Notes under the pieces: model-generated
What the model saw: the letters and a program-made list of their open reading frames with translations, nothing else
Database searches by the model: none
Told to the model about the DNA's origin: nothing
Position numbers and translations under genes: made by a program
Assembly: GCA_038087875.1 (NCBI GenBank)
Contig: CM075989.1
Span: 62,001 to 126,000 of the forward strand
Source: Malacoraja senta
Taxonomy: Eukaryota
DNA: 64,000 nt
Direction: 5' to 3'
Part shown: positions 11,900 to 15,437 of the stretch, piece after piece
How positions within the stretch are numbered: the stretch's first letter is position 1
Layout: every line of letters starts with the position of its first letter

Positions 11900-12000
11900 T
11901 TACTTGGTGCAACATTTCTCCTCACCGAAGCACGCTCCGCTTTCCTTAAAGCCATCGGGGCAGGGGTTCAGACATGTTCCCCTCTGAAGGCTGCACTTAT
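11900..12000 (-). CDS. beta-defensin-like mature-peptide exon, copy A: (D)KCSLQRGTCLNPCPDGFKESGACFGEEKCCTK*
   Basis: Manual translation of the minus strand gives C-x6-C-x3-C-x9-C-x5-CC with GxC motifs, the beta-defensin spacing. Preceded by a pyrimidine-rich phase-1 acceptor (ttcatcttgtattttgtgtcgtacAG at 12001-12026) and ends at TAA (11900-11902). Confidence 0.85.
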
Positions 12001-12030
12001 CTGTACGACACAAAATACAAGATGAATTAT

Positions 12031-13748
12031 CAGTTGCTAGACAAGGGAACTAACTTTGAAACTAATGAAGCTTAAATTTCAGGGCCATTAATCCCGGAGG
12101 GGCCCCTGAAGCGACTTTAGTCCACATTGCTTAAAAATGTTGGGTCTGCTGTATGAGGAGGTGTTTAAAATAATAATAATAATAATATATTGTAATTCAA
12201 TACAAAATAATAGTTACAATTAAAATTAAAAGGTTATTAAAGTATCATGTAGGCTCGCCGTAAACGACAAAACAACGTTCAAATTAAGGATGTTTCATTC
12301 TAAATAATTTAAAACATTATTAACATTTCTGACAGAAATTAAAACTTTTATTTGAATTATTTATCTTAGGCTTGCAGTAATCGAAAAAAATGAAAGCAAA
12401 TTTCGATGCTTGCGGTCATTGTAAAGGCCAACACTTTGGAAACTTTATGTTTTCACGAATAATCTTATAAAACCTTAAAATATACTAAACATATAAAACC
12501 ATTACAATAAATAATAACAATTTGAATAATGTACGATTAAAATACAGTAAAAATAAAAAGGTAATAAAAATATCTTCTTTGGTAGATACAAACAGTAGAT
12601 ACCGCGTCGTAACAACAAGGGGAGCAGTTGAAAATGCAATCGCAATCACAATGCAAACGTGAATCACGTGATTATCACGTCGTGATAGCACTCGTGATAG
12701 CGATCTGGAATAATTTTTTTTCAATAAAGTGTTCATAAGAATACAATATTTTAATTACCTCTTCTCAAAAATTAATGTTATATTTAGAAAAGTGAGGTAA
12801 GTGATAAAAGTGAAATAGTGTTAGATTGGCCTAAGCCTATTGTTTTTATGAAGAGGTGAACGGAAGGAAGGCAGCGACTGCAAAGCCTAGGCTAATACTG
12901 TATTACAAGTATTTATGAAAAAGTTTTTTTTTTAAATCTCAGAAAGTAGACCTAAAAAGTTGTTGACTATTATAGCATTTTGCAGGAGCTGTATTTTTTT
13001 TTTAATTTCTGGATCTCCAAGAAGATAGGGGTTTTTAAACACACAGCTTCAAACGCATTGTTACAAGGACATTTTCAGATGGAACAAGTGGTATTGCTTC
13101 TTTGAGATGAGCTGACAAATTTAGGATAGAAGTTCTATATCAACTCTATGACTGTTTGATAATCCTGTTACGCAAGAGTATTGACCCATGTGAGCAGATT
13201 GCGAAAATGTTTAAGTTAGATGCAGACAGTATTAAACGTATTATATCATATTACGAAGATGATATGGACCACAAATCAGTAAACGAGAGTTATCAGTTCA
13301 AAGAATATTTGCACCTTACGATAATCCCAGAACACAGAAGAAAATACGTCATCTAAAATGCAATGTGCAGAAGTTGTTCAGCTTATTTATGAGCAACACC
13401 TAATTGAAGTGTTCCCCAATATTACTACTACGCTTAAGCTGTACTTGACAATGCCTATCACAAGCTGTGAAGCAGAAAGGTATTTCAAAAATGTCCCTAA
13501 TTTTCAACCCTCCATAACTCGGAATTTTTTTATTCACAACAGTGACTTTGACATGTGAAATAATCCACTACATCAATTTTCATCAACATTTGAAATGTGT
13601 GGTTGAATTTTAAAAAAGTGTAGTGATCCGTCGTGGAACAACCCCATTGAAGAAGATAACAGTGGTTACCGAAACCCCGTTGCTGTTTGCGAAGGGGCCC
13701 CCATAACAGTTCAAGCTTCAGGGCCCCAGAAATGTAGGTCCCCCACTG
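12031..13748 (+). mobile_element. decayed hAT DNA transposon; longer copy at 38669-40736
   Basis: FPNITTTLKLYLTMPITSCEAERYF resembles the hAT C-terminal dimerisation motif; ends CAGT...CACTG; no convincing 8-bp TSD. Confidence 0.7.
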
Positions 13749-13799
13749 TAGCTGTAGGGAAAAACTAGGACAGATGAAATATTAAATGTGTTCGTCAAA

Positions 13800-14146
13800 T
13801 ATCTATCTATCTATCTATCTATCTATCTATCTATCTATCTATCTATCTATCTATCTATCTATCTATCTATCTATCTATCTATCTATCTATCTATCTATCG
13901 ATCTGTCGGTCTGTCGATCTGTCGATCTGTCTATCTTTCTATCTGTCTATCTGTCTATCTGTCTATCGGTCTAACGATCGATCTATCTATCTATCTATCT
14001 ATCTATCTATCTATCTATCTATCTATCTATCTATCTATCTATCTATCTATCTATCTATTTATCTATCTATCTATCTATCTATCTATCTATCTATCTATCT
14101 ATCTATCTATCTATCTATCTATCTATCTATCTATCCATCTATCCAT
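13800..14146. repeat. (TATC)n/(GATA)n microsatellite
   Basis: Directly visible tetranucleotide array with an interrupted core. Confidence 0.98.
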
Positions 14147-14149
14147 CTC

Positions 14150-14780
14150 GTTCACTCAAACAAAGAGTGAATGGGGAACTAACAGATTGGTTTGCCACTG
14201 CAGTTGCAGTGCGACAAGAGTGTGTGATCTCACCACAGCTATTTAACATCCTGCACGAACTAGTCATGTTGTATGCATTGCACGACACACATATGTAGGC
14301 GTAAATATCCAAGGTCAGCTCCTAAATAACCTGCGCTTCGCAGATGACATCGCACTCATTGCTGCGAGTGAAACCGACCTCCAGACTTTGGTAAACCTCG
14401 TACATGAAATCAAAAAAGCTTTTGGACTGAAAATTAACTTAGCAAAAACACGTGCCGGGGATCTCCAAAGAGAACATTAAATAAATATCTAAATCAATGA
14501 CACATCATTAGCCCAGTTGAGGATTTCACATATCTAGGAGGAAAGATATGTCAAACTGGATCCTACACCCAAGACGTAAAATTACGCATTGGGAAAGCTG
14601 TTGGGACTGTTCAAAACCTCCAAAAGATATGGAGCGCCAAAGACATCAGAAGCAGCACTAAGATCAATCTCTATAAAGTATTTGTGCTCTCAATACTGTT
14701 GTATGGAGCATAAATATAGACACTAAGAAAGGAAGTTGAAAACAGACTTTCAACATTTGAAGTGATGTCCCTTCACAAAA
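14150..14780 (+). mobile_element. old RTE-clade LINE RT fragment; copy at about 41330-41960
   Basis: Manual translation shows [31 protein letters not shown] and FTYLG. Confidence 0.75.
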
Positions 14781-14797
14781 TAAGGCCCCTTCCTAAC

Positions 14798-14863
14798 CCT
14801 GTTGCTTGTTCATGGTTCCAAGCGAGAGGCTAAGTGGCAGTGATTGTAGAATGTTTGCACGTC
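14798..14863 (-). CDS. speculative 66-nt phase1-phase1 middle (propiece) exon, (G)RANILQSLPLSLSLGTMNKQQ; paralogue at 41977-42042
   Basis: tttAG acceptor, G|GTTAGG donor, open and frame-preserving in both copies, and sits in a short non-TE-looking island of the intron. Confidence 0.25.
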
Positions 14864-15388
14864 CTAAATATAGAAACATAGGTGCAGGAAGAGGCCATTC
14901 GGCCCTTTGAGCCATCACCGGCATTCGATAATATCATGACTGATCATCTAAAATCAGGACCCCGTTCCTGCTTTCTCCCCATATCCCTTGATTACATTAG
15001 TGCTAAGAGCTAGATCTAACTCCCGCGTGAAAAACAAAACATTGAATTGGCCTCCACTGCATTCGTCATCTCAGTGCAAAATAGCCTACCCCTTATTCTT
15101 AAACTGTGTGACCCCTGTTTCTGGACTTCCCCAACATTGGGAACATCTTTCCTGCATCTAGCCTGTCCAAACCCTTAAGAATTGCAAATGTTTCTTTAAG
15201 ATTCCCTGTCACCCATCCAAGTTCCAGTGAATATAAGCCCAGTCGACCTATTCTTTCATCATATGACAGTCTCGCCATCCCGAGACTCAACCTGGTGAAC
15301 CTATACTGCACTCCCTCAATAGCAAGAATGTCCTTCCTCAAATTAGGAGACCATAACTGGACACATATCCAAGGTCCGTATAAACGGC

Positions 15389-15437
15389 CTGCTGCATGAA
15401 GCAATGCAATGATGCAAATTGATGCAAATATGTACAT
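15389..15437 (-). CDS. candidate signal-peptide exon of defensin copy A (MYIFASICIIALLHAA+G)
   Basis: ATG followed by a hydrophobic stretch ending in small residues, in non-TE sequence upstream of the defensin exon on the same strand. Phase-1 ends are possible at CAG|gccgtt or GGCC|gtttat, both weak donors. Confidence 0.5.

What the first reader, a model, noticed from the sequence alone, without database searches (positions are those of the whole stretch)
11900..15437. Hidden beta-defensin-like gene, missed by the ORF track, inside the repeated unit
Seen: a 101-nt minus-strand exon with a good acceptor encodes KCSLQRGTCLNPCPDGFKESGACFGEEKCCTK* (C-x6-C-x3-C-x9-C-x5-CC), and a hydrophobic ATG-initiated stretch lies 3.4 kb upstream in compatible phase. 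Known: this Cys spacing with a separate signal-peptide exon is the vertebrate beta-defensin architecture, and such genes form copy-number-variable tandem clusters. Inference: this is the only plausibly functional host gene here and may be an unannotated chondrichthyan defensin. I cannot tell whether it is already described.
Basis: partly seen in the sequence, partly recalled or inferred. Interest (0 to 1): 0.85.

Follow-up and report, generated by a model that had tools for sequence, protein, structure and literature searches.

The report
Skate beta-defensin gene with orphan twin
A skate's DNA holds a six-cysteine beta-defensin-type exon that likely joins a signal-peptide exon 9 kb away to make a small secreted defence peptide, next to a duplicate that has lost that first exon, which would extend a family usually described from bony fish to mammals into cartilaginous fish.

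Summary
The terminal exon (12000-11900, minus) is real: AG acceptor, phase 1, 32 residues with six cysteines, Pfam beta-defensin above its curated cut-off, predicted defensin fold. A much better first exon lies at 21024-20943: TATAAA box, Kozak ATG, 19-residue signal-like peptide, phase-1 GTAAGT donor; it is the only such hit in the window (1 of 600 simulations had all features, criteria set afterwards). Together they give a 60-residue precursor across an 8.9-kb, repeat-filled intron. A second exon copy (38638-38538) sits in a 22-kb tandem duplicate from which an 824-nt deletion removed exactly this promoter and first exon, so it is likely an orphan. The host is a skate. Splicing, expression and activity are untested; the predicted mature peptide is neutral, not cationic. 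No cartilaginous-fish beta-defensin turned up in ten paper searches, but this scan has noted shark examples before. Verdict: new member of a known family; interest 0.45.

The parts
21096..21101 (-). TATAAA box, 77 nt upstream of the ATG (predicted promoter)
   Evidence: sequence
20943..21024 (-). Predicted coding exon 1: ATG with A at -3 and G at +4, 19-residue signal-like peptide ending A-S-A, 8 further codons plus 1 base (phase 1)
   Evidence: splicing inferred, not shown
20937..20942 (-). Splice donor GTAAGT
12001..20942 (-). Predicted intron, 8942 nt, at least 6228 nt in repeat blocks (DNA-transposon-like insert 12043-13752, TATC array, CR1 and Penelope-like pieces)
11900..12000 (-). Terminal coding exon, copy 1: six-cysteine beta-defensin domain and stop
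38538..38638 (-). Terminal exon, copy 2: open frame, acceptor kept, 2 base changes, both amino-acid changing; likely orphan
20770..21593 (.). 824-nt block holding the promoter and exon 1; absent from the duplicate unit (joined at 52699-52700 over a 2-nt TA overlap)
15389..15437 (-).
9335..31467 (.). Duplication unit B (carries the likely complete gene)
35789..62575 (.). Duplication unit C (95-99% identical to B; lacks exon 1; carries extra inserts)

Best explanation
This is a skate beta-defensin-type exon that is likely the second half of an intact two-exon gene, predicted to make a 60-residue secreted precursor whose mature six-cysteine peptide likely serves host defence, while the duplicate exon 26 kb away has lost its first exon and is likely silent. 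Mechanism: transcription would start below the TATAAA box at 21101 (inferred); exon 1 (21024-20943) would splice over an 8.9-kb phase-1 intron to exon 2 (inferred; the joined frame is open for 60 codons, shown by computation); signal peptidase would cut after residue 19 (inferred from hydropathy and the small -3/-1 residues; no SignalP run); the 41-residue product would fold into a three-stranded, three-disulfide beta-defensin (fold predicted; pairing 1-5, 2-4, 3-6 inferred by homology). Because that product has equal acidic and basic residues, it more likely acts as a narrow-spectrum antimicrobial or leukocyte-attracting peptide, as reported for non-cationic fish beta-defensins, than as a strongly cationic membrane breaker (inferred). 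A 22-kb tandem duplication copied the gene, and an 824-nt deletion then removed the copy's promoter and first exon (deletion shown; order inferred): ordinary birth and death in a defensin cluster.
For: PF00711 25.5 and 25.1 bits against a cut-off of 21, the only family reported at E<=10. Atlas best hits both PF00711 clusters, 0.86 with 176 shared features, a lead only. All six Cys align with bovine BNBD-12 (E 0.24). AlphaFold2 single-sequence model pLDDT 79.7 with three strands; Foldseek ranks 1-15 are vertebrate beta-defensins (best probability 0.97); VIA ranks 1-6 are beta-defensins, best hBD-4 Z 4.7, rmsd 1.4, 33 of 33 aligned. Phase-1 intron just before the Cys domain is the conserved beta-defensin/big-defensin feature (PMC7203481 passages). 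Exon 1: only hit on either strand, any phase, for ATG + hydrophobic core + GTRAG donor, and it is on the right strand, side and phase; 1 of 600 (strict core) and 5 of 600 (loose core) simulated units had all four features; joined frame 60 aa, no internal stop, matching the 18-26 + 39-45 residue layout of fish precursors (PMC8231796 passages). The block is single-copy in the window and matches none of the fetched proteins. A 40-nt tandem repeat straddles the block's right end and the duplicate keeps only the part beyond it, which points to deletion in the copy, not insertion. Two other organisms each have two contigs over or around exon 2; one covers it at about 89% with no gap. Host: CR1 ORF1 is 85% identical to a Leucoraja erinacea protein.
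Against: No junction read or transcript was seen. The exon-1 criteria were fixed after I had seen the candidate; without the TATA and Kozak terms 74 of 600 (strict) or 235 of 600 (loose) simulated units had a hit. The exonic side of the donor is weak (TGT; score 1.5 in my simple matrix) and the signal-like peptide has no basic residue near its start. Fold matches are statistically weak (no Foldseek E<=0.001; no Z>=5). Two cysteine loops are one residue shorter than in the human and bovine peptides aligned. Net charge is +1 for the exon peptide and 0 for the predicted mature peptide. The first AATAAA lies about 480 nt past the stop, inside a repeat. Whether the relatives' exons keep their cysteines was not visible (table cut to 40 of about 440 rows).
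Confidence: 0.7

Rival explanations
1. Both exons are real beta-defensin exons but both are dead or orphaned: the signal-like stretch at 21024 is chance, and the working gene lies elsewhere in the genome.
For: A hydrophobic ATG stretch with a phase-1 GTRAG donor alone arises in 12-39% of simulated units; the region is mostly repeats; the two copies differ by about 2%, so an open frame in both proves little.
Against: TATA box, Kozak context, cleavage-type residues, donor, strand, side and phase all coincide (1-5 of 600); precursor length fits the family; a second individual's contig has five differences in the 3' flank and none in the exon (small numbers).
Confidence: 0.17
2. The gene is intact and expressed, but the peptide works mainly in the reproductive tract or as a receptor ligand rather than against microbes, as many mammalian beta-defensins do (recalled) and as a testis- and pituitary-expressed grouper defensin suggests.
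For: Neutral charge. A grouper beta-defensin is mainly expressed in pituitary and testis (PMC3004800, abstract start in the listing).
Against: An anionic flounder beta-defensin still inhibits bacteria and attracts leukocytes (PMC8698591 abstract). No tissue data either way. This rival shares the gene model with the best explanation and overlaps it.
Confidence: 0.2
3. One reading: exon 1 is 15437-15389, spliced at a GC donor or broken by the adjacent CR1 fragment.
For: Hydrophobic core 3.08, phase 1; it lies 18 nt from the clear CR1 boundary at 15371 and is not significantly CR1-derived itself (289 of 500 shuffles reached the summed score).
Against: Donors GCCGTT and GTTTAT; no TATA, poor Kozak; a contig of organism B (15340-15451) lacks a net 4 nt inside it and shows no GT at the junction; a better exon exists upstream.
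Confidence: 0.03
4. The exon is a furin-like cysteine repeat from another gene, a piece of a transposon, or a chance frame.
For: The middle motif resembles furin-like repeats: R-spondin-2 among weak PDB hits, 2 of 5 phmmer hits, and 5 of 5 metagenome loci look like such repeats by eye.
Against: Those matches cover only the C-x3-C-P stretch; Pfam reports only PF00711; CC then stop is not furin-like; no neighbouring repeat exons; contig depth over the exon is at baseline while flanking transposon ends are 10-70 times higher; chance rate 0-1 in 150 windows.
Confidence: 0.03

Closest known systems
Vertebrate beta-defensins (Pfam PF00711; solved hBD-1 2nlb/2nls, hBD-4 5ki9, bovine BNBD-12 1bnb, crocodile CpoBD13 7t9q)
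   Same: Six-Cys motif ending CC, G-x-C before Cys4, predicted three-strand fold, phase-1 intron before the Cys domain, two coding exons with a long intron as in mammals, about 60-residue precursor, tandem duplication with a broken copy.
   Different: Cys loops 6-3-9-5, one shorter in two loops than the human and bovine peptides aligned; neutral charge; cartilaginous-fish host; exon 1 carries 8 residues beyond the predicted signal; 21-48% identity to solved members.
Teleost beta-defensins (sea bass defb1/defb2; anionic flounder fBD)
   Same: Precursor layout (signal 18-26, mature 39-45 residues); non-cationic members exist.
   Different: Teleost genes have three exons with short introns and finish the peptide in exon 3 (PMC8231796); here the stop is in the Cys exon and the intron is 8.9 kb.
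Big defensins (amphioxus, molluscs, horseshoe crab)
   Same: Beta-defensin-like C-terminal domain and the phase-1 intron before it (PMC7203481); oyster BigDef1 C-domain at Z 2.9.
   Different: No hydrophobic N-terminal domain: only about 10 residues lie between the predicted signal cut and Cys1.
Furin-like cysteine repeats (PF15913; R-spondin-2)
   Same: A short G-x-C-L-x-x-C-P-D-G-F stretch.
   Different: Different Cys spacing, occur in arrays inside long proteins, no terminal CC-stop.

Membership tests
Vertebrate beta-defensins | Six cysteines in the C-x6-C-x3/4-C-x9-C-x5/6-CC pattern; profile match | tested here: met
   Cys at 2, 9, 13, 23, 29, 30; PF00711 25.5 bits vs cut-off 21
Vertebrate beta-defensins | Three-stranded antiparallel defensin fold | tested here: met
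   Prediction only: pLDDT 79.7, three strands; top structural matches are beta-defensins, but E 0.2 and Z 4.7
Vertebrate beta-defensins | Disulfide pairing 1-5, 2-4, 3-6 | not testable with these tools
   Model coordinates not returned; inferred from Cys-to-Cys alignment with BNBD-12 and hBD-1
Vertebrate beta-defensins | Phase-1 intron just 5' of the Cys domain | tested here: met
   AG at 12002-12001, frame starts at the third exon base; feature from PMC7203481
Vertebrate beta-defensins | Signal peptide on a separate upstream exon, spliced in frame | tested here: inconclusive
   Strong candidate 21024-20943, joined frame open; no SignalP, no junction reads
Vertebrate beta-defensins | Expression and antimicrobial or immune activity | not testable with these tools
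   No RNA data obtained; no assay
Strongly cationic, membrane-lytic beta-defensins (hBD-2/hBD-3 type) | Clear net positive charge | tested here: not met
   Net +1 (exon peptide), 0 (predicted mature peptide); not filed under this subtype; non-cationic beta-defensins exist (PMC8698591 abstract)
Teleost-type beta-defensin genes | Three coding exons, peptide finished in exon 3 | tested here: not met
   Stop codon lies in the Cys exon; teleost layout from PMC8231796
Big defensins | Hydrophobic N-terminal domain before the Cys domain | tested here: not met
   Preferred model leaves about 10 residues; 0 of 100 upstream minus-strand open stretches (45 aa or more, 12001-31500) matched a defensin family at E<=0.05
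Furin-like repeats | PF15913-type Cys spacing in an array | tested here: not met
   No such Pfam hit at E<=10; single exon with CC-stop

The most novel reading that the evidence does not exclude
Skates carry an expressed, multi-copy, unannotated beta-defensin family with two coding exons and a long phase-1 intron. That would date beta-defensins to the common ancestor of jawed vertebrates, make the mammal-like two-exon layout the old one and the teleost third exon a later gain, and supply a neutral-charge, seawater-fish member for testing how non-cationic defensins work. Not excluded either: orphaned terminal exons in neighbouring units being used as alternative last exons from one promoter (no evidence here, below 10%).
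Probability: 0.55. Interest if true: 0.62.

Novelty: new member of a known kind. Interest (0 to 1): 0.45.

Why it matters
Reviews I read place beta-defensins 'from teleost fish to mammals' (PMC7203481) and list only transferrin, squalamine and kenojeinin I as shark or skate antimicrobials (PMC6795676). A skate gene fills the gap between amphioxus big defensins and bony-vertebrate beta-defensins and bears on which gene layout is ancestral. It gives a concrete, cheap test (one RT-PCR, one synthetic peptide). The architecture, fold and birth-and-death pattern are themselves ordinary, most specialists would expect such genes, and unchecked notes of this scan already report them in several shark genomes, so the score is moderate.

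Tried and rejected
No whole genome is held, so copy number and synteny were not testable. Run search with 11600-12300: no RNA holder listed among 24 runs; no evidence on expression. Run X24 had nothing laid on the exon-2 stretch; X5 and X18 had no cover on 15340-15627; neither counts as evidence. Word-based protein searches with the exon-2 frame and the exon-1 frame found no candidate among 26-86 and 25-83 residue proteins; longer proteins were not searched this way. phmmer over 1.84 billion representatives gave 5 hits at E<=0.001, all long repetitive proteins, 2 furin-like. Atlas on the exon-1 frame: no usable hit. Metagenome scan: 5 loci from 409 pattern matches, furin-like repeats by eye. 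These blanks fit 'unannotated' but a 32-residue query is weak, so they do not prove it. Ten paper searches showed no title on a cartilaginous-fish defensin; I judged most rows from the listing only. 'Defensin' and 'DEFB' had no occurrence in 1 supplement of the elephant shark genome paper or 3 of 4 supplements of the little skate genome paper (one scanned file not searchable). A recalled review of vertebrate beta-defensin evolution is not held; subscription journals and database annotations may already name such genes.

Full report
Observation. The minus-strand exon 12000-11900 is as described. A pyrimidine-rich tract ends in AG at 12002-12001, the frame starts at the third exon base (phase 1), 32 residues follow with Cys at 2, 9, 13, 23, 29 and 30, and TAA closes it. 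A six-frame scan finds the pattern twice, here and at 38638-38538; 150 simulated windows gave 0 strict and 1 loose match. The two copies differ at 2 of 101 bases, both changing an amino acid, about the same 2% as their introns.

Identity of the exon. Both peptides pass the curated cut-off of Pfam PF00711 (25.5 and 25.1 bits against 21) and match no other family at E<=10. The Atlas's two shown hits are PF00711 clusters (0.86 and 0.78; leads only). All six cysteines align with bovine BNBD-12, though at E 0.24. A single-sequence AlphaFold2 model has pLDDT 79.7 and three strands. Foldseek's first 15 rows are vertebrate beta-defensins (best probability 0.97, E 0.2; none at E<=0.001), and of 48,161 chains aligned by VIA the best is hBD-4 (Z 4.7, rmsd 1.4, 33 of 33), with 26 chains at Z>=2 and none at Z>=5. 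The middle of the peptide also resembles furin-like repeats, but only over a short stretch, so I reject that reading. The disulfide pairing could not be read from the model.

Host and setting. A CR1 ORF1 protein next to the locus is 85% identical to a Leucoraja erinacea protein and 60% or less to most shark and ray entries, so the host is a skate or close relative. The window holds a head-to-tail duplication: unit B (9335-31467) and unit C (35789-62575), 95-99% identical, plus a partial third unit at 1-4562. Nearly all long frames tested are retroelement proteins. Contigs from two other coded organisms lie on exon 2: organism B has two (11680-12030 with 32 differences and 10 gaps; 11715-12043 with 37 differences and no gap), organism C has one across it and one whose flanks align while 11892-11993 does not. 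So related species likely hold more than one copy; whether their cysteines are kept was not visible, since the table showed 40 of about 440 rows. Depth over the exon is at baseline, against 10-70 times more at the transposon ends beside it, so the exon is not part of a high-copy repeat. A contig of a second individual of the closest organism has five differences, all in the 3' flank, and an exon identical to copy 1.

15437-15389 is hydrophobic and in phase 1, but its donors read GCCGTT or GTTTAT, the ATG has T at -3 and +4, and there is no TATA-like box. Such stretches occur 13 times in the window counting both strands and duplicates. Organism B's contig over 15340-15451 lacks a net 4 nt inside it and shows no GT at the junction (one contig, so B's copy could itself be decayed). 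It is not demonstrably LINE-derived.

A better first exon. At 21101-21096 is TATAAA; 77 nt further is an ATG with A at -3 and G at +4; it opens 19 signal-like residues ending A-S-A, 8 more codons and one base, then GTAAGT. It is the only hit in the window, on either strand and in any phase, for ATG plus hydrophobic core plus GT(A/G)AG donor, and it lies on the right strand, upstream of copy 1, in phase 1. In 600 simulated 23.8-kb units all four features came together 1 time with the strict core threshold and 5 times with the loose one; the first feature alone came 74 and 235 times. These criteria were set after I had seen the candidate, so the figures flatter it. Joined to exon 2 it gives 60 codons without an internal stop and a predicted 41-residue mature peptide with 5 basic and 5 acidic residues, inside the 18-26 plus 39-45 residue layout given for fish precursors (PMC8231796, passages read). 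The intron would be 8942 nt, at least 6228 of them in repeat blocks; one insert, 12043-13752, is absent from an organism C contig. Weak points: TGT on the exon side of the donor, no basic residue at the start of the signal, no SignalP run, no near poly(A) signal (first AATAAA at 11417), no comparison of this exon with relatives.

The twin. Unit C lacks an 824-nt block (20770-21593; 2-nt TA overlap at the join near 52699) that holds the TATA box and exon 1. A 40-nt tandem repeat straddles the block's right end and unit C keeps only the part beyond it, so this reads as a deletion in C. No other first-exon candidate of this quality exists upstream of copy 2 within the window. Copy 2 is therefore likely an orphan, unless a first exon lies beyond 64000.

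How it likely works. Transcription from the TATA promoter, one phase-1 splice, secretion, signal removal and oxidative folding to a beta-defensin are each inferred from the anatomy and from the family. Neutral charge argues against a strongly cationic membrane-breaking mode; an anionic flounder beta-defensin still inhibits bacteria and attracts leukocytes (PMC8698591, abstract read), and that kind of role is my best guess. A reproductive-tract or receptor role is the main functional rival. I put the exon's beta-defensin identity at about 0.95, the 21024 gene model at about 0.8, and the whole statement at 0.7.

Comparison and novelty. The phase-1 intron before the Cys domain is shared by beta-defensins and big defensins, and the same review says beta-defensins occur from teleosts to mammals and has no occurrence of 'shark', 'cartilag' or 'chondrichth' (PMC7203481, passages read). 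Teleost genes have three exons and mammalian ones two with a longer intron; this gene follows the mammalian plan. A review of cartilaginous-fish immunity lists no defensin for sharks or skates (PMC6795676, section 14 read whole); a shark skin proteomics paper has the word only in a reference (PMC10707392). Ten searches and two genome-paper supplement searches found nothing in print (listed under Tried and rejected), but the library lacks most subscription journals. Protein searches found no annotated close relative, with limited power. Unchecked notes of this scan describe similar two-exon genes and large families in shark and other cartilaginous-fish genomes; I did not test them, they are not evidence, but they mean this is not the scan's first such case. 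Verdict: a real, probably intact and apparently unannotated skate beta-defensin gene with an orphaned duplicate; new member of a known kind; interest 0.45.

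Noticed in passing
window 31480-35626 (+): An uninterrupted 1271-codon LINE frame with endonuclease and reverse transcriptase domains, followed by a 64-nt poly(A) run at 35563-35626; sits between duplication units B and C and looks young.
   Followed up: partly
window 42140-46876 (-): A 4.7-kb insert present only in unit C, with reverse transcriptase and weak tyrosine-recombinase matches and repeated ends; looks like a broken DIRS-type retrotransposon (family name recalled).
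   Followed up: partly
window 12043-13752: A 1.7-kb insert with high-copy ends and low-copy middle, absent from an organism C contig and with short internally deleted relatives in three runs; likely a non-autonomous DNA transposon.
   Followed up: partly
window 890-1987, 15873-17341, 47747-49069 (+): GC-rich repeated frames with a weak GIY-YIG match, likely Penelope-like element pieces; shorter 71%-identical relatives at 10552-11455 and 37008-38011 lie just 3' of each defensin exon.
   Followed up: partly
window 1-4562: A third, partial unit (95% to 15127-19628) runs off the window's left end; a third terminal exon may lie about 3 kb before position 1, with no first exon of its own in view.
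   Followed up: no
window 21594-31467 vs 52699-62575: This part of the duplication is 99% identical while the rest is 95-98%, which may reflect gene conversion or a second, later copying event.
   Followed up: no
window 8756-9691 (-): CR1-type ORF1 with an SGNH/GDSL esterase domain; the duplication's left breakpoint (9335) falls inside it.
   Followed up: partly
window 63628-63936: A 30-nt-period minisatellite of about 11 copies at the window's right end.
   Followed up: no
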